A DNA stretch of 64,000 nt, taken from positions 11,405-75,404 of the forward strand of contig CAWBPS010000006.1 of the NCBI GenBank assembly GCA_963790645.1, written 5' to 3'. Below, one piece after another: positions 19,202 to 62,836 of the stretch (its first letter is position 1; each line of letters begins with the position of its first letter). Made by a program: the position numbers and the translations under genes. The DNA is from Terriglobia bacterium (GTDB lineage Bacteria; Acidobacteriota; Terriglobia; Terriglobales; Acidobacteriaceae). The notes under the pieces were generated by a model that saw nothing but the letters and a program-made list of their open reading frames with translations, was not told the origin of the DNA and did not search any database.

Positions 19202-21007
19202 CTAGGTGACGCTTACCTCGGTGTAGGTTCCGAAAACTTCGCGGAGGGCTTCGCAGATTTCGCCAACCGTCGCGTAGGCCCGCACCGCGTCCACAATGTA
19301 GGGCATGGTATTGGCGGATGAGATGTCGCCGTTTGCGGACGTTCGCGGTTCCTGGACAGCGGCTTTTTTCAAGGCGTCCAGACGCCGCTGGACTTCTTCA
19401 TTCGAACGGCGTGCGCGCAAGGCCTTGAGCTTTTCCGATTGATGCCGGGCCACGCTTTCATCGATGTACAGCGTATGCGGCGGTTCTTCCTCGACCACAA
19501 ACTCGTTCGCTCCCACTATGATCTTTTCTTTGGCTTCGACGGCGCGCTGGTATTGGTAGGACGCTTCAGCAACTTCTTTCTGCGGATAACCGCGCTCGAT
19601 GGCTTTGACCATGCCGCCCATGGCGTCCAGCTTGCCAAAATAGTCGAAGGCCCCCTTCTCCATTTGCAGGGTCAGGGTTTCGAGGAAATAAGACCCGCCC
19701 AGGGGATCGACTGTCTGGGTCACTCCCGATTCGTAAGCGATGATCTGCTGGGTGCGCAGCGCGATGCGCGCCGCTTCTTCCGTCGGCAGGGCGAAAGCCT
19801 CATCGTAGGAATCCGTGTGCAGCGACTGGGTGCCGCCCAGCACCGCCGCCATGGCCTGCAAGGCCGCCCGCGCGATGTTGTTCATAGGCTGCTGCGCCGT
19901 GAGTGAGACACCTGCCGTCTGGGTGTGGAAGCGAAGCAGGCGGCTGCGCTCGTTCTTTGCCTGGAAACGGTCCTTCATCACCTGGTACCAGATCTTGCGG
20001 GCTGCCCGGTATTTGGCAATCTCTTCAAAAAAATCGTTGTGGGCGTTGAAGAAGAAACTGAGCCGCGGCCCGAAGTCATCCACGTCGAGACCGCGCCGCT
20101 GCGCCCATTCCACGTACTCGACGCCGTCGTAAAGCGTGAAAGCCAACTCCTGCAGGGCGGTCGAGCCGGCCTCGCGAATGTGGTATCCGCTGATCGAAAT
20201 TGTGTTGAACTTTGGCGTAAACCTGGAACCAAACTCGAAGGTGTCCACCACCAGGCGCATCGAAGGCGCGGGGGGATAGATATATTCCTTCTGCGCGATG
20301 TACTCCTTCAGGATGTCGTTCTGCAGCGTGCCCGAAATTTTCTTCCAGTCGGCGCCCTGCTTTTCCGCGACCACCAGGTACATCGCCCATAGCACCGACG
20401 CGGGTGAGTTGATAGTCATCGAGACCGTGGTTTTTTCCAGGGGGATGCCGCCGAACAGGATCTCCATGTCCTCGAGCGAATCGATGGCCACGCCGCACTT
20501 GCCGACCTCGCCTTCGCTGGCGGGATGATCGGAGTCATACCCCATCAGCGTGGGAAGATCGAAGGCCACCGACAATCCGCCGCCGCCGCTTCCCAGCAGA
20601 TATTTGTAGCGCTGGTTGGTTTCTTCCGGCGAGGCGAAGCCGGAGAATTGCCGCATCGTGAACAGCTTGCCCCGATATCCGCTGGCGTGAATGCCGCGCG
20701 TGAACGGCGGCTGCCCGGGATGGCCCAGATATTTTTCTGCGCTCCAGTCAGCGGGCAGATCAGCGGGAGTATAAAGCCGCCGCACACGTACGCCGGAAAT
20801 TGTGGTGAAGCGGGCGTGGCCGTGCTCATCGCAATTTACGCCGGTGGACGCGCCGATCGGCTTCTCGGGCGCTTTTTCCAGAGTCGGCAGGAGCGTTTTC
20901 TCCGCCCACTCCTTTTCGCCCGGGGAGGGATGCCGGCCGTCAAACACATCGGCAATCGGGTTTTCCGCGATTTGCGGCTTGGAAGGCTTCTTATCAGGCA
21001 TGTGCAC
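19202..21007 (-). CDS. B12-dependent acyl-CoA mutase large (catalytic) subunit, isobutyryl-CoA-mutase-like signature
   Basis: Strong similarity by eye to the MutB catalytic barrel ([38 protein letters not shown]). TMRQF and [12 protein letters not shown] occupy the Tyr89 and Arg207 positions of MutB. Confidence 0.85.
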
Positions 21008-21434
21008 TCCGCCTATCTCCGATCATAGAAGAGGCCAGTACGGCGGGCAAGGCACCAACTGAAGTCATCAACTGAAATCACGTGGGGACAGCCGCCCTCG
21101 GCTGTCCGGTCGAGTGAAACTCGACGAGTCTCTGCCGGAGACCAGCAGCGGAGCTTCTCTCCGCCGGACAGCCGAAGTGTCATCCTGAGCGGAGCAACTG
21201 TTTCGCGAAGCGAAGCAGCTACGGAGTCGAAGGACCCCTATATTCACGCGGATGCTGGCACTTCAAGAGAGAGCGCAGGACGTTCCTTCTTCCTGAGGTA
21301 GGGGTCCTTCGACTTCGTGAGCCATTCGCAAGCAAATGAGCTCACTCCGCTTGATTGGATAACGACGTTGGCTCGTCGCGGAGTAGAGTGGTATGCGATG
21401 AACACGACCAAGGCTCGTGAGAGGAGCCAACGTC

Positions 21435-22478
21435 ATGCTGATTATAGGCTGCGATTTTCATCCTGGCTTTCAGCAGGTCGCGATCTTTGACAACTTAACG
21501 GGTGAGATTCAGGAAAAGCGGTTACAGCACCGCGCCGAGGCGGAGCAGTTTTACCGCGGGCTGGCGGGCCAGGAAGTGCGGGTGGGGATGGAGGCCTGCG
21601 GGCACTATCCGTGGTTCGAGCGGCTGCTGGCGGAGCTGGGCTTCGAGTTGTGGTTCGGCGATGCGGCGAAGGTGCGAGCCTCGGTGGTGCGCAAGCAGAA
21701 GACGGACCGGCGGGATGCCGAACACTTGCTGGATCTATTGCGCGAGAATCGATTTCCGCAGATCTGGGTGCCGAGTCTGGAAGTGCGGGACGTGCGGCAG
21801 TTGCTGGTGCATCGCCACAAGCAAGTGCAGGCGCGGACGCGCACCAAGAACCAGCTGCAGGCCATGGCGCTGAGCCAGGGCGTGCAGAAAAAATACAAGC
21901 TGTGGACGAAGGCAGGGCGCGAGGAGATGGAGCAGTTGCCCTTGCTGCCGTATGCGGCCCAGCGGCGAAAGCAGTTGCTGCAATCGCTCGACGGACTGGA
22001 AGCGGAAATCAGCGAACTGGACCGGCGAGTGGCGGACGAAGCGCGGCAGCGGCCGGAGGCGGTGCGGCTGATGACGCATCCCGGAGTCGGTCCGGTAACG
22101 GCCTTGGCCCTGGTGCTGACCTTGGGACCGGCCAACCGATTCGAATCGGCCAAGCAAGTGGGCAGCTACTTCGGGCTGATTCCCAGTGAAGATTCCAGCG
22201 GCGGAAAACAGCGGCTGGGCAGGATCAGCAAACAGGGCAGTTCGTTTCTGCGCTTTTTGCTGGTGGAAGCGGGACAGACCGCGGCGCGGTTGGATCCGCA
22301 GCTGAAACGCTTCTATCGTCGCCTGGCGGCGCGCAAGAATCGCAGCGTCGCCAAGGTGGCCGTGGCCAGAAAACTGGCCACGCGGTTGTACCTGATGTTG
22401 CGCGAAGACTGGACGTACACGCAACTCTGTCAGGCCGTTATGCAGGTGAGCCTGAGTCATTCTGTGGCCGGCCACTAA
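21435..22478 (+). CDS. IS110-family DEDD transposase
   Basis: The N-terminal RuvC-like domain (MLIIGCDFH...VGMEACG) and C-terminal Transposase_20 motif (HPGVGPVTALALV...SAKQVGSYFGLIPSEDSSGGKQRLGRISKQGSSFLR) are present. ATG at 21435 follows GAGGAG. Confidence 0.9.
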   Translation: MLIIGCDFHPGFQQVAIFDNLTGEIQEKRLQHRAEAEQFYRGLAGQEVRVGMEACGHYPWFERLLAELGFELWFGDAAKVRASVVRKQKTDRRDAEHLLDLLRENRFPQIWVPSLEVRDVRQLLVHRHKQVQARTRTKNQLQAMALSQGVQKKYKLWTKAGREEMEQLPLLPYAAQRRKQLLQSLDGLEAEISELDRRVADEARQRPEAVRLMTHPGVGPVTALALVLTLGPANRFESAKQVGSYFGLIPSEDSSGGKQRLGRISKQGSSFLRFLLVEAGQTAARLDPQLKRFYRRLAARKNRSVAKVAVARKLATRLYLMLREDWTYTQLCQAVMQVSLSHSVAGH

Positions 22479-22724
22479 GAGCCGAGCGCTTGAGTGGGCA
22501 GCCTGCCTCCCTGAAAAGGTCAGGGAGATCGAACTGAGCAATCATGGGAGCTAGTCCCGAAGAGATGGATAGTGGAACCTGAGGTTCCACTGCGAGATTG
22601 AAATCGAATGACGACCTTGGTCTGGGAGTCAAATACCTTCTACCAGAGCGAAATGGCGCCACTCACCGCGTCCACGCCGTAGTGTCGCTACAGAACTCTT
22701 GACAGGGCACACCGTCGTTAGAGA
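22479..22724 (+). ncRNA. Candidate bridge/seek RNA region in the IS right end
   Basis: The region is non-coding and contains hairpins TCCCTGA-AAAGG-TCAGGGA (22508-22526) and AGTGGAACC-TGA-GGTTCCACT (22571-22591). The position matches IS1111-type elements. No guide pairing was demonstrated. Confidence 0.3.
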
Positions 22725-22776
22725 CAGGATGACAGGGGGCTGTCCCCATGTGATTCATTCCAGGCACGTGCACCTG

Positions 22777-22891
22777 TGTGGGGCGGACACTCTTGTCCGC
22801 CGCCTTTGACTTTGTTTTTGAGCATATCGGACCGATGGCGAGACTGGTAAGGCAACTTCAAAAGCGTCGGACAAGAGTGTCCGACCCACAC
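22777..22891. repeat. REP/BIME-like inverted pair (GTGGG head plus GGACACTCTTGTCC hairpin)
   Basis: The element reads GTGTGGGGCGGACACTCTTGTCCGCC ... GTCGGACAAGAGTGTCCGACCCACAC. Confidence 0.8.
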
Positions 22892-29639: not shown

Positions 29640-29774
29640 CACGTGGGGACAGCGCGCCCCGGCTGTCCGGTCGAGTGAAACTCGACAAGTTTTTATCTTT
29701 GCCAGGCACCGCACGGTCGACACCACAGCGGAGCTTCGCTCCGCCGGACCGCCGGGGGCGGCTGTCCCCACGTG
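29640..29774. repeat. Family B REP-like element, intact copy B2
   Basis: The termini are CACGTGGGGACAGCG...GCTGTCCCCACGTG. Internal hairpins are GTCGAGT GAA ACTCGAC and GCGGAGC TTCG CTCCGC. Confidence 0.85.
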
Positions 29775-39234: not shown

Positions 39235-39436
39235 GTCATCCTGAGCGAAATCGGCCCATTCGCTTGCGAATGGGCCGATGAAGTCGAAGGACCCCTACCT
39301 CAGGAAACAGGTGTCCCGCATTTTTCTTGAAGTGCGATCGACAAAACATGAGGTTGCCAGCATCCGCGTGAACATAGGGGTCCTTCGACTCCGGGGCTGC
39401 TTCGCAAAGCGAAGCAGCCCCTGCGCTCAGGATGAC
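39235..39436. repeat. Family C cruciform element, copy C2
   Basis: The element reads GTCATCCTGAGCG-[hairpin]-GAAGTCGAAGGACCCCTA ... TAGGGGTCCTTCGAC-[hairpin]-CGCTCAGGATGAC. Confidence 0.9.
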
Positions 39437-39455
39437 ATTTCCAAAATGAAGTGCG

Positions 39456-46301: not shown

Positions 46302-46370
46302 TGTTCTGGATTCTAGAGCACTGGGGCGCTTACGCAAGTGTGATCCCAGGGGCAATCGTGAAGCGAAAGT

Positions 46371-46516
46371 GTCATCCTGAGCGAAGCTGAAGGTTTCGCT
46401 TGCGAAACGTTCAGCGGAGTCGAAGGACCCCTACCCACACGTACTACAGTTACCAAGGGGTCCTTCGACTGCATGTGAGGCCCGCAAGGCGGGCCTCACA
46501 CTTCGCTCAGGATGAC
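46371..46516. repeat. Family C cruciform element, copy C3 (ftsI-murE junction)
   Basis: The element reads GTCATCCTGAGCG..GAGTCGAAGGACCCCTA ... AAGGGGTCCTTCGAC..CGCTCAGGATGAC. Confidence 0.9.
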
Positions 46517-46550
46517 GACGATTGCCAGGTTGTCATGACGGCGATCGCGT

Positions 46551-55521: not shown

Positions 55522-55723
55522 GTCATCCTGAGCGGAGTGCTGTCCATTCGCTCCGCGAATGGACAGACGGAGTCGAAGGACCCCTATACGCTCGCGGTCG
55601 CTGAGATTTCGTGGGGAGGCGCCGGTGAACACGCCCGTGCCAATCGGCTTTGATCCAGCTATAGGGGTCCTTCGACTGCGTGACTGCTTCGCAAAGCGAA
55701 GCAGTCATTCCGCTCAGGATGAC
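55522..55723. repeat. Family C cruciform element, copy C4
   Basis: The element reads GTCATCCTGAGCG-[CTGTCCATTCGC TCC GCGAATGGACAG]-ACGGAGTCGAAGGACCCCTAT ... ATAGGGGTCCTTCGAC-[TGACTGCTTCGC AAA GCGAAGCAGTCA]-TTCCGCTCAGGATGAC. Confidence 0.9.
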
Positions 55724-55736
55724 AAATCAGAAGAAA

Positions 55737-61303: not shown

Positions 61304-61450
61304 GTCATCCCGAGCGCAGTCTCGAGCCGCGCTTGCGCGGTGAGAGCAAGTCGAGGGACCCCTGCGCTACCACAAATCTATCCGTTCATAGGGGCCCTTC
61401 GACTCCGTAAGTGCTTCGCGAGGCGAAGCACTTACTTCGCTCAGGATGAC
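61304..61450. repeat. Family C cruciform element, copy C5 (diverged)
   Basis: The element reads GTCATCCCGAGCG...GTCGAGGGACCCCTG ... TAGGGGCCCTTCGAC-[AAGTGCTTCGC GAG GCGAAGCACTT]-ACTTCGCTCAGGATGAC. Confidence 0.85.
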
Positions 61451-62702: not shown

Positions 62703-62836
62703 CACGTGGAGACAGCCGCCCTCGGCTGTCTGGCGGAGCAGGGCTCCGCTGTTTCCGACAACGATCAAGATCCGCCGGCGAGAAGATTCGTCGAGCTACG
62801 CTCGACCAGACAGCCGAGGGCGGCTGTCTCCACGTG
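62703..62836. repeat. Family B REP-like element, copy B3
   Basis: The termini are CACGTGGAGACAGCCGCCCTCGGCTGTC ... GACAGCCGAGGGCGGCTGTCTCCACGTG. Internal hairpins are GCGGAGC AGG GCTCCGC and GTCGAGC TAC GCTCGAC. Confidence 0.85.

What the first reader, a model, noticed from the sequence alone, without database searches (positions are those of the whole stretch)
21079..22752. Three-level nested insertion: an IS inside a cruciform element inside a REP-like element
Intact family C elements end ...CCGCTCAGGATGAC (for example 39424-39436 and 55711-55723).

At 21341-21351 the right arm of copy C1 reads CTCACTCCGCT and then diverges. The missing CAGGATGACA resumes at 22725-22734. It is followed directly by GGGGGCTGTCCCCATGTG (22735-22752), the inverted partner of CACGTGGGGACAGCC at 21079.

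So a 1373-bp IS (21352-22724) sits at ...CCGCT^CAGGATGAC of a family C element. That element itself sits inside the terminal stem of a family B element.

Several features fit the IS1111 subgroup of IS110, members of which are known to target REP-type palindromes:
- There is no target-site duplication.
- Subterminal inverted repeats TAACGACG and CGTCGTTA are present.
- The transposase gene hugs the left end.
- A long non-coding right end follows.

The nesting gives a relative order of three mobilisation events. It also identifies a very abundant repeat as the probable programmed target.
Basis: partly seen in the sequence, partly recalled or inferred. Interest (0 to 1): 0.7.

Follow-up and report, generated by a model that had tools for sequence, protein, structure and literature searches.

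The report
RNA-guided insertion sequence inside nested repeats
A 1.37-kb IS1111-type insertion sequence sits at one exact position in an abundant palindromic repeat, which itself sits inside another repeat, and carries short RNA guide segments that match that position; this is a well-behaved new member of a known kind of RNA-guided mobile element.

Summary
Removing 21352-22724 restores a family C repeat. Removing C (21178-22734) restores a family B repeat.

The 1373-bp insert is an intact IS1111-group element of the IS110 family:
- a 347-aa DEDD/PF02371 transposase;
- an 83-bp left end and a 246-bp non-coding right end;
- subterminal inverted repeats with 7-nt and 3-nt extensions;
- no target duplication.

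I examined 95 further left junctions, 77 full copies in Acidobacteriota genomes plus 18 in metagenome contigs. Relatives lie almost always at ...CGCT^C[A/G]G[A/G]ATGAC, in one orientation.

I located the probable guide (seek/bridge) RNA:
- A 9-nt segment, GUCAUUCUG (22456-22464), lies in the last codons of the transposase gene and is the complement of the right flank.
- A 5-nt segment, GCGCU (22486-22490), copies the left flank.
- Both sit in an internal loop between covarying stems.
- Natural guide variants match their own flanks: 1 mismatch in 675 positions against about 19 in shuffles.
- A second loop matches the element's own ends, and this match changes in step in a 55 %-identical relative.

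The experimentally studied ISEc11 shows the same module order.

This is a new member of a known kind, of moderate interest.

The parts
21079..21177 (.). Family B element, left 99 bp (left terminal hairpin, body, and 5' half of the right terminal hairpin, ending ...GGACAGCCGAAG)
   Evidence: Aligns with intact B copies 29640-29774 and 62703-62836.
21178..21351 (.). Family C element: left arm, centre, and right arm up to ...CTCCGCT. The left arm still holds an unoccupied target on the minus strand at 21179-21191.
   Evidence: Alignment A2 with four intact C copies; target pattern search.
21352..22724 (+). IS1111-group insertion sequence, 1373 bp
   Evidence: blastn alignments to related copies start at base 1; most end at base 1373, and the common right terminus is read directly in the rest. 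Flanks restore the C element.
21352..21370 (+). Left end: 7-nt terminal extension TGATTGG plus left subterminal inverted repeat ATAACGACGTTG
   Evidence: 10 of 12 match to the right repeat, with an 8-bp perfect core. The 55 % relative L044:762-2203 has a perfect 13-bp repeat with 7-nt and 3-nt extensions at homologous positions.
21365..21433 (+). Left-end hairpin: ACGTTGGCTC pairs with GAGCCAACGT and encloses the Shine-Dalgarno GGAG (21423-21426)
   Evidence: RNA fold -37.2 kcal/mol, z = -4.3. The role in translational control is inferred.
21435..22478 (+). Transposase gene (347 aa). Catalytic residues D7, E53, D91, D94 and the GLIPSEDSSG motif (S255-G256) are conserved.
22442..22506 (+). Target-binding internal loop of the predicted guide RNA. 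Outer stems 22442-47/22501-06 and 22450-54/22495-99; inner stem 22465-68/22481-84.
   Evidence: Single-sequence fold. Pair counts on 49 sequences show compensatory changes.
22456..22464 (+). Guide T: GUCAUUCUG, the complement of right-flank top strand +1..+9 (CAGGATGAC). It lies in transposase codons 341-344.
   Evidence: 1 mismatch in 675 cells against 18.6 +/- 2.4 in shuffles. Four kinds of matching variants. Top pair in the blind mutual-information scan.
22486..22492 (+). Guide B: GCGCU (+UG), same sense as left flank -5..-1 (xCGCT), so it would pair with the bottom strand
   Evidence: Variants GGGUU, GCGGU and GCCUU match flanks ggtt, ggt and actt. 28 mismatches against 39.0 +/- 2.4 in shuffles; 4 of 20000 shuffles reach it.
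22507..22527 (+). Hairpin H1 (CUCCCUG / CAGGGAG) between the two loops
   Evidence: Covarying closing pair C-G / U-A / U-G.
22538..22567 (+). Donor-binding module: (GC)AAUCA (22538-22544, complement of left end TGATT(GC)), stem 22545-49/22555-59, and AGAGA+UG (22561-22567, equal to right end AGAGA | TG)
   Evidence: Same flanking motifs as the target loop (YGA-[T]-UGG ... CCGA-[B]-UG). In L044 both guides change together with the ends: TGATTTC with GAAAUCA, ATAGA with AUAGA. ISEc11 has the same order.
22571..22591 (+). Hairpin H3 (AGUGGAACC / GGUUCCACU)
   Evidence: Four pairs with changes on both sides.
22592..22698 (+). Conserved 3' part of the non-coding region (includes GAGAGCGAAAUGGCGC and a hairpin of variable length); role unknown
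   Evidence: Alignment of 58 unique right ends.
22699..22704 (+). TTGACA, a candidate -35 box of a promoter completed only in the circle junction (-10 GA|TGAT at 18-nt spacing)
   Evidence: Invariant in 58 unique right ends while its neighbours vary. The promoter function is inferred by analogy with ISEc11 (PMC11187229).
22710..22724 (+). Right subterminal inverted repeat CACCGTCGTTAG plus 3-nt extension AGA
22725..22734 (.). Family C element, last 10 bp of the right arm (CAGGATGACA)
22735..22752 (.). Family B element, last 18 bp (3' half of the right terminal hairpin and terminal CCCCATGTG)

Best explanation
An intact IS1111-group insertion sequence (IS110 family, DEDD transposase) has inserted without duplication at CTCCGCT^CAGGATGACA. 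This site is in the right arm of a family C palindromic repeat. That repeat had earlier landed in the loop of the right terminal hairpin of a family B repeat.

Target choice is RNA-guided. A transcript of the 3' end of the element starts inside the last codons of the transposase gene. It folds into two internal-loop modules.

1. The first module presents GUCAUUCUG and GCGCU(UG). GUCAUUCUG pairs with the top strand of target positions +1..+9; its two U residues allow A or G at +2 and +4. GCGCU(UG) pairs with the bottom strand of positions -5..+2.
2. The second module, built the same way, presents (GC)AAUCA and AGAGA(UG). These match the element's own left and right termini as joined in a circular intermediate.

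The transposase-RNA complex would bring the circle junction and the repeat terminus together and recombine them. The conserved TTGACA, 20 nt from the right end, would supply the -35 box of a promoter that exists only in the circle.

What is shown: the anatomy, the site specificity, the guide-flank covariation and the stem covariation. What is inferred: the RNA itself, the circle, the promoter and the chemistry.
For: Transposase family and motifs.

Boundaries and restoration of the C and B repeats.

Site specificity in 77 full copies. The left flank ends in T in 73 of 73 copies with enough flank, and the right flank reads C-R-G-R-A-T-G-A-C in 72-75 of 77. A further 18 left junctions from metagenomes all end in gct.

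Guide T:
- 618 Watson-Crick pairs, 56 G.U pairs and 1 mismatch in 675 cells; shuffles give 18.6 +/- 2.4 mismatches and 0 of 20000 reach the observed value.
- A guide C opposite +2 always meets G (18 of 18), against 8 G and 49 A for a guide U (Fisher p = 1.6e-11).
- A guide C opposite +4 always meets G (13 of 13).
- A unique guide G (L017) meets a unique flank C.
- The guide UUUCG variants (L079, L080) meet CGGAA and CGAAA.

The blind mutual-information scan of 15312 pairs (IS column against flank position) ranks window 22463 with flank +2 first.

Guide B covaries more weakly but significantly.

Stems around the loop: 92.7 % of cells paired against 35-50 % when partners are slid; 10 pairs with changes on both sides against 4.2 +/- 1.2.

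Donor module: both guides change in step with both ends in L044:762-2203.

Positive control: in ISEc11, whose target GTGAAAATACTG and seekRNA were established experimentally (PMC11187229), the same inspection finds CAGUAUUUU, then GUGAAAAU, then AUUACAU, then AUAUAAA. That is the same order: target module, then donor module.

The order of top-strand complement before bottom-strand match is the IS1111 order reported in PMC11187229.

A third lineage (L020:1136-2389, 33 % aa identity) sits in the same repeat one base further on. It carries its own matching guides GUCAUCCU and ACGCUCAG.
Against: - No RNA, circle junction or empty site was observed; none can be with these tools.
- The source genome is not in the searchable collections. 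The nearest copies are 92 % (aa) and 89 % (nt) identical, so other copies of this exact IS were not examined.
- Guide variants and flank variants are both partly genome-specific, so some of the association could be confounded by lineage.
- Guide B tolerates many mismatches, especially at -5.
- The donor T guide is only 5 nt (AAUCR) across the close family. It does not track the G/C difference at left-end position 7, which is G in the window.
- Donor and target share no identical core. Positions +1 and +2 are TG in the donor and CA or CG in the target, unlike ISEc11 (AAAT) or IS621 (CT).
- Rfam holds no family that matches.
Confidence: 0.87

Rival explanations
1. The element recognises the repeat through protein-DNA or structure recognition, for example the hairpin or cruciform of the palindromic repeat. 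The short complementary segments would then be coincidental or secondary.
For: The target lies next to a perfect hairpin in every family C arm. REP-type targets of other IS were once explained this way. Guide B is short and often mismatched.
Against: Flanking hairpins differ completely among insertion sites. Some targets belong to other repeat families (...GCCCGGTT|CGGAATGACA), and only the 5+9 nt at the junction are conserved. Guide T variants match their flanks base for base, including unique changes. The blind scan picks the guide position first. Experimental work on ISEc11 and ISPa11 shows RNA guidance in this group (PMC11187229).
Confidence: 0.06
2. The arrangement is not three successive insertions. 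C and B would be adjacent or recombined repeat units, with BIME-like clustering and no mobility of C into B. Only the IS would be a true insertion.
For: No target duplication flanks C. The restored B hairpin loop is one base longer than in intact copies and reads GGGGGCTG rather than GGGCGGCTG. Family C arms carry different hairpins in the two arms, so C looks like a pair of REP-like units rather than a classical MITE.
Against: Both parts of B abut C exactly. Together they rebuild a full-length B (117 bp against 134-135 bp in the intact copies) with both terminal hairpins, at 80 % mean column identity. Another C copy (46371-46516) also lies between the arms of a flanking inverted repeat, GGCAATCGT / ACGATTGCC. 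This suggests that C lands in hairpin loops.
Confidence: 0.12
3. The IS is a decayed, immobile remnant rather than an active element.
For: Only one copy lies in the 64-kb window although 9 further perfect target sites are unoccupied. The outermost subterminal repeat pair is mismatched. Left-end position 7 (G) does not match the donor guide. Truncated remnants of relatives exist.
Against: The ORF is intact with all catalytic residues. Both ends, both guide modules, all stems and the TTGACA box are intact and match the consensus of 58 unique relatives. Several relatives have 5-10 copies per genome.
Confidence: 0.15

Closest known systems
ISPa11 (IS1111 group, Pseudomonas aeruginosa) and ISPpu9/ISPpu10 (P. 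putida)
   Same: They are IS110-family elements that insert in one orientation at one position of repetitive extragenic palindromes, without duplication. ISPa11 has a downstream non-coding region giving a seekRNA that co-purifies with the transposase (PMC11187229; PMC12288879; Tobes and Pareja 2006, as cited in PMC11208160).
   Different: The host phylum differs (Acidobacteriota). The target repeat differs (...CGCT^CRGRATGAC). Sequence similarity to ISPa11 was not measured here, and the best named hits are only about 30 % identical. Here the 5' guide lies inside the transposase reading frame.
ISEc11 (IS1111 group, Escherichia/Shigella)
   Same: The transposases are 31 % identical over their full length, with the same catalytic and GL-P----SG motifs. 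The extension geometry is the same, 7 nt and 3 nt. The guide order is the same: top-strand complement, hairpin, bottom-strand match, then a donor module. A junction promoter is reported for ISEc11 (PMC11187229).
   Different: ISEc11 targets a short linear site, GTGAAAATACTG, and shares a 4-bp core (AAAT) between donor and target. Its guides lie about 110 nt downstream of the stop codon. The present element has no identical core (TG against CA/CG), and its target loop straddles the stop codon.
IS621 bridge RNA system (IS110 group)
   Same: Both have a DEDD recombinase plus a structured RNA with two internal loops. One loop reads both strands of the target and the other reads the donor (PMC11208160, PMC11208158).
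   Different: In IS621 the RNA is in the left end upstream of the gene, subterminal repeats are 2-3 bp, and there is a CT core. Its transposase aligns with ours only in the C-terminal domain (E = 1e-9).

Membership tests
IS1111 group of the IS110 family | DEDD (RuvC-like) N-terminal domain plus PF02371 C-terminal domain | tested here: met
   PF01548 1.3e-15 and PF02371 3.7e-26. NF033542 241 bits against a cut-off of 140. D7, E53, D91 and D94 are aligned with ISEc11.
IS1111 group of the IS110 family | GL-P----S(T)G motif; transposase of 330-350 aa (PMC11187229) | tested here: met
   GLIPSEDSSG at residues 247-256; 347 aa.
IS1111 group of the IS110 family | Longer non-coding region downstream of the transposase gene | tested here: met
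   Left end 83 bp, right non-coding end 246 bp.
IS1111 group of the IS110 family | Subterminal inverted repeats (usually 11-13 bp; 7-17 bp range) with terminal extensions of 7 (or 6) bp on the left and 3 bp on the right | tested here: met
   ATAACGACGTTG against CACCGTCGTTAG: 10 of 12, with an 8-bp perfect core. Extensions are TGATTGG (7) and AGA (3). The 55 % relative in L044 has a perfect 13-bp repeat at the same positions. The repeat is weaker than typical.
IS1111 group of the IS110 family | No target-site duplication; insertion at one site in one orientation | tested here: met
   Flanks rebuild CCGCT|CAGGATGACA exactly. 77 full copies plus 18 further left ends are at the same position and orientation.
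IS1111 group of the IS110 family | Transposase closer to IS1111-group than to IS110-group members | tested here: met
   Full-length tblastn hits to ISEc11 (2e-27) and 80 %-coverage hits to IS5075/IS4321. IS621 and ISCro4 match only at residues 184-324, 1e-9. No phylogeny was made.
IS1111 group of the IS110 family | seekRNA/bridge RNA from the non-coding region, with the top-strand complement 5' of the bottom-strand match | tested here: met
   In silico only. Guides lie at 22456-64 and 22486-92 in that order, with guide-flank and stem covariation. The RNA itself was not observed.
IS1111 group of the IS110 family | Circular intermediate whose junction forms a promoter | not testable with these tools
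   Only indirect: an invariant TTGACA 20 nt from the right end would pair with GA|TGAT at 18-nt spacing in a circle.
REP/BIME-type repeats (for family C) | Short, abundant, extragenic palindromic units, often in inverted pairs | tested here: met
   11 termini matching CGCTCRGRATGAC with up to 1 mismatch in 64 kb, against 0.65 expected. Each arm is conserved box, variable perfect hairpin, conserved box. All copies read lie between ORFs.
REP/BIME-type repeats (for family C) | Association with a RAYT (REP-associated tyrosine transposase) and a conserved GTAG-type head | not tested
   No search for a RAYT gene was made.
MITE (for families B and C) | Terminal inverted repeats plus a target-site duplication | tested here: not met
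   Terminal inverted repeats are present, but no duplication flanks any of the five C copies or the B copies read.

The most novel reading that the evidence does not exclude
This lineage may work without an identical donor/target core. The two positions read by both guides are TG in the donor and CA or CG in the target. They are related only by transitions and are covered by G.U-tolerant guide bases.

The two U residues in the 9-nt guide widen the target to several repeat subfamilies (CAGG, CGGA, CGGG, CAGA).

Because that guide is also transposase codons 341-344, retargeting rewrites the protein's C-terminal tail (S-H-S-V, S-H-P-V, S-H-A-V, S-H-F-V are all seen).

If true, this would be a natural example of degenerate, core-mismatch-tolerant bridge recombination with a guide embedded in coding sequence.
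Probability: 0.3. Interest if true: 0.55.

Novelty: new member of a known kind. Interest (0 to 1): 0.36.

Why it matters
The finding documents an uncatalogued IS1111-group lineage that is widespread in soil Acidobacteriota (Terriglobia). At least three transposase lineages (more than 76 %, 55 % and 33 % identical) have converged on one abundant repeat terminus.

The roughly 95 independent insertions give a natural data set on guide-target pairing rules:
- which positions are read;
- that G.U pairs are accepted;
- that mismatches are almost never accepted on the 9-nt side.

Such data are useful to people engineering seekRNA/bridge-RNA recombinases. The data also give a practical way to annotate such elements and their guides in metagenome-assembled genomes, where they are now called only 'IS110 family transposase'.

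The nesting itself is ordinary genome archaeology.

Tried and rejected
- **Rfam.** At gathering thresholds over the whole window, and at E <= 10 over 21000-22850, there were only chance miRNA-like hits on the B/C palindromes and no bridge/seek RNA family.
- **RNAalifold on the whole right end.** It gave a weak consensus with a covariation term of -0.43. The structure had to be built by hand and then counted.
- **First guide candidates.** GAAUGAC at 22606-22612 and GAGCG at 22647-22651 were rejected. The first is not conserved among relatives, and the order is wrong for IS1111.
- **Hairpin H1.** Its halves CCCUGA and UCAGGGA resemble the target, but its covariation is unrelated to the flanks (for example L077, L058), so it is structural.
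- **Shared donor/target core or hidden duplication.** None exists at any register.
- **Staggered-cut model.** It predicts frequent CA.. left ends. Only L013 (C at left-end position 1) and L050 (T at flank +1) fit, and both may be point mutations.
- **Exact-protein look-ups.** Look-ups for the transposase (two starts) and both neighbouring genes, meant to find the source genome or an empty site, found nothing on record.
- **Full-text search for the repeat terminus sequence.** It returned only unrelated primer sequences.
- **Metagenome scan with the exact 28-nt left end.** It found no copy closer than about 90 %.
- **Donor guide T in the 33 % relative (L020).** It could not be assigned convincingly; only 4 nt matched.
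Full report
**1. The observation**

The family C terminus CCGCTCAGGATGAC occurs 8 times in the window with up to 1 mismatch, against 0.05 expected. The family B terminus CACGTGGGGACAGCC occurs 6 times against 0.16 expected.

Deleting 21352-22724 gives a 184-bp element that aligns end to end with four intact family C copies: 39235-39437, 55522-55724, 46371-46516 and 61305-61450.

Deleting the whole of C (21178-22734) gives a 117-bp element that aligns with the intact family B copies 29640-29774 and 62703-62836. Both terminal hairpins are rebuilt. C lies in the loop of B's right terminal hairpin (GGACAGCC GAAG^GGG GGCTGTCC).

There is no duplication at either junction of the IS or of C.

**2. 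What the insert is**

The ORF 21435-22478 (347 aa; ATG preceded by GGAG) is an IS110-family transposase:
- Pfam PF01548 and PF02371;
- NCBIfam NF033542, 'IS110 family RNA-guided transposase', 241 bits against a cut-off of 140.

Aligned with the ISEc11 transposase (31 % identity over the full length), it keeps D7, E53, D91, D94 and the GL-P----SG motif (GLIPSEDSSG).

The named relatives with full-length matches include ISEc11, which belongs to the IS1111 group; IS5075 and IS4321 match over 80 % of the query. IS621 and ISCro4, the solved IS110-group recombinases, match only the C-terminal domain at 1e-9.

The layout is that of IS1111 as defined in PMC11187229:
- The left end is 83 bp and the right non-coding end is 246 bp.
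- The subterminal inverted repeats are ATAACGACGTTG and CACCGTCGTTAG (10 of 12, with an 8-bp perfect core).
- The terminal extensions are 7 nt (TGATTGG) and 3 nt (AGA).

A 55 %-identical relative found by chance next to another copy (L044:762-2203) has a perfect 13-bp repeat with the same 7/3 geometry. This fixes the homology of these positions.

**3.

A scan of one genome per species recovered 80 loci encoding transposases 76-92 % identical. Nearly all are in Acidobacteriota/Terriglobia assemblies, and two short contigs are binned to other phyla.

blastn of the window's IS against them starts at query base 1 in nearly all loci. It ends at base 1373 in most. About 25 alignments stop near base 1308 at a divergent stretch, but the shared terminus ...CGTCGTTAGAGA is read directly there.

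In 77 full copies:
- the left flank ends in T in 73 of 73 copies with enough flank, in C at -2 in 62, in G at -3 in 66, and in C at -4 in 57;
- the right flank reads C-R-G-R-A-T-G-A-C in 72-75 of 77.

An exact-match scan of metagenome contigs with the 28-nt left end gave 18 more left junctions, all ending in gct. It also gave 6 right junctions, all CAG(G/A)ATGAC or CGGGATGAC.

The flanking hairpins and the rest of the repeats differ from site to site. Some sites belong to other repeat families (...GCCCGGTT|CGGAATGACA). Only the roughly 14 nt at the junction are common. The prediction 'each copy interrupts the same position' holds at the level of the IS family.

Copies of this exact IS could not be examined. 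The source genome is not in the collections.

**4. How the target is chosen**

IS1111-group elements use a seekRNA (bridge RNA) encoded downstream of the transposase gene. A segment complementary to the target's top strand precedes a segment matching the top strand (PMC11187229; PMC11208160).

Rfam has no model for this, so I looked for the segments directly.

- GUCAUUCUG (22456-22464) is the antiparallel complement of +1..+9 of the right flank (CAGGATGAC), with one G.U pair.
- 21 nt further on, GCGCU (22486-22490) repeats -5..-1 of the left flank. It is followed by UG.

Across 75 insertions (two aberrant right flanks set aside), the 9-nt guide forms 618 Watson-Crick pairs, 56 G.U pairs and 1 mismatch. 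Shuffling flanks among copies gives 18.6 +/- 2.4 mismatches, and none of 20000 shuffles reaches the observed value.

The variants are telling:

| Guide variant | Flank found |
|---|---|
| ..UUCCG | always CGG.. (18 of 18; with U the flank is A 49 times and G 8 times; Fisher p = 1.6e-11) |
| ..UCCUG | always G at +4 (13 of 13) |
| ..UGCUG (the single case, L017) | CAGCATGAC (the single case) |
| ..UUUCG (L079, L080) | CGGAATGAC and CGAAATGAC |

The two degenerate positions of the target logo (R at +2 and +4) are exactly those opposite U in the commonest guide.

A blind scan of mutual information between every variable IS column and 30 flank positions (15312 pairs) ranks window 22463 with flank +2 first.

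The 5-nt guide is looser but also tracks its flank. GGGUU pairs with ggtt, GCGGU with ggt, and GCCUU with actt. There are 28 mismatches at -4..-1 against 39.0 +/- 2.4 in shuffles, reached by 4 of 20000.

**5. RNA structure**

The two guides face each other across an internal loop.
- The outer closure is GCAGGU/GCCUGC (22442-47/22501-06) and GCCUG/UGGGC (22450-54/22495-99).
- The inner closure is UGGC/GCCG (22465-68/22481-84).

The single-sequence fold recovers the outer stems and the hairpins; the inner stem appears one register off.

On 49 distinct sequences, 92.7 % of cells are paired, against 35-50 % when partners are slid. There are 10 pairs with changes on both sides against 4.2 +/- 1.2 in shuffles (0 of 500). 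One example is A-U to C-G in the outer stem of L021. Another is C-G to U-A in 18 sequences at the inner stem.

The 5' guide and part of the outer stem lie inside the transposase reading frame (codons 341-344). This is beyond the region matched by the family model (residues 3-325). Guide variants change the tail from SHSV to SHPV, SHAV or SHFV.

**6. The donor side**

A second module has the same layout and even the same flanking motifs (YGA-[guide]-UGG ... CCGA-[5 nt]-UG).
- (GC)AAUCA (22538-22544) is the complement of the left terminus TGATT(GC).
- Then comes a small hairpin (22545-49/22555-59).
- Then comes AGAGA+UG (22561-22567), equal to the right terminus AGAGA joined to the left terminus TG, as in a circle junction.

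Within the close family the termini hardly vary, so there is only conservation there. In the 55 % relative, both change together:

| Element | Left end | Guide | Right end | Guide |
|---|---|---|---|---|
| Window IS | TGATTG(G/C) | (GC)AAUCA | AGAGA | AGAGA |
| L044:762-2203 | TGATTTC | GAAAUCA | ATAGA | AUAGA |

Its target guides (GUCAUCCUG, CCGCU) still match the same repeat.

As a positive control I applied the same reading to ISEc11, whose target GTGAAAATACTG and seekRNA are experimentally established (PMC11187229). Its non-coding region holds, in order:
1. CAGUAUUUU, the complement of AAAATACTG;
2. GUGAAAAU, equal to the target's left part;
3. AUUACAU, the complement of its left end;
4. 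AUAUAAA, its right end joined to its left end.

A third, distant lineage (L020:1136-2389, 33 % aa identity) sits in the same repeat one base further on (CGCTC^AGGATGAC, with an AG core). It carries GUCAUCCU and ACGCUCAG in the same arrangement.

**7. Other features**

- TTGACA (22699-22704) is invariant in 58 unique right ends while its neighbours vary. In a circle it would lie 18 nt upstream of GA|TGAT. This fits the junction promoter known for this group, but that is an inference.
- The left end folds into a long hairpin that encloses the Shine-Dalgarno sequence (-37.2 kcal/mol, z = -4.3).
- About 105 nt of conserved sequence (22592-22698) have no assigned role.
- Unlike ISEc11 (AAAT) and IS621 (CT), donor and target share no identical core. 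The two positions read by both guides are TG in the donor and CA or CG in the target.

**8. Verdict**

The insert is an intact IS1111-group element, unnamed as far as these tools can tell; its best named relatives are about 30 % identical. It is inserted site-specifically in a REP-like repeat, which is nested in another repeat.

The kind of system (RNA-guided DEDD transposase, REP targeting, natural retargeting) is already described. I therefore rate it as a new member of a known kind.

Its value lies in the natural guide-target covariation set. There are also two possible peculiarities: a guide embedded in coding sequence and wobble-degenerate, and the absence of an identical core.

Noticed in passing
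L044:762-2203: A second IS of the same group (55 % aa identity) lies 700 bp from the main copy. It sits in the same kind of repeat terminus (CTTCGCT|...|CAGGATGACA). It has a perfect 13-bp subterminal repeat and a reading frame that runs through both target guides.
   Followed up: yes
L020:1136-2389: A distant IS110-family element (33 % aa identity, 1254 bp) is inserted in the same repeat motif one base further on (CGCTC^AGGATGAC), with a 2-bp AG core. Its own guides are GUCAUCCU (2252-2259) and ACGCUCAG (2275-2282). At least three lineages have therefore converged on this repeat.
   Followed up: partly
L035:4263-4320 (right junction): The last 25 nt of the right end (TGACAGGGTGCAACGTCGTTAGAGA) are tandemly duplicated before the flank CGGGATGACA. 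This looks as if the right end had recombined with an internal TGA... site resembling the left terminus.
   Followed up: no
L086, L088, L092, L098 (same locus in four metagenomes); L096:7012-7074: These are decayed copies. In the first four, the left end plus about 150 bp is joined directly to GGATGACA of the right flank. In L096, a 28-nt left-end fragment is followed 35 nt later by a second left end.
   Followed up: partly
L013 (left end) and L050 (right flank): L013 begins CGATTGC instead of TGATTGC. L050 has TAGGATGAC instead of CAGGATGAC at flank +1. These are the reciprocal bases expected if position +1 were occasionally exchanged, but they could also be simple C/T mutations or read errors.
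   Followed up: no
window 39235-39437, 46371-46516, 55522-55724, 61305-61450, 21178-21351: Each family C arm is conserved box (TGTCATCCTGAGCG), then a perfect hairpin of quite different sequence in every arm and copy (apex CGC-NNN-GCG), then conserved box (GAGTCGAAGGACCCCTA). The variable centre ranges from about 15 to 75 bp. The nature of this repeat family (REP/BIME-like, MITE or other) was not resolved.
   Followed up: partly
window 46352-46535: The C copy at 46371-46516 lies between the arms of a flanking inverted repeat (GGCAATCGT ... ACGATTGCC). This resembles C1 in the hairpin loop of B. Family C may insert preferentially into hairpin loops.
   Followed up: no
window 21365-21433: A 10-bp perfect inverted repeat in the IS left end (ACGTTGGCTC / GAGCCAACGT) encloses the ribosome-binding site of the transposase gene. 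The pairing is kept in relatives and, with changed sequence, in L044.
   Followed up: partly
window 21435-22475 (protein residues 126-264): There are weak sub-threshold similarities of the transposase's middle part to the TIGR-Tas RNA-guided endonuclease (NCBIfam NF052498, 26 bits against a cut-off of 100) and to TasH in the PDB (E = 0.0013).
   Followed up: no
window 22592-22698: This is a conserved stretch of the right non-coding end downstream of both guide modules. It includes the nearly invariant GAGAGCGAAAUGGCGC and a hairpin whose length varies by insertion of extra paired bases. No function is assigned.
   Followed up: partly
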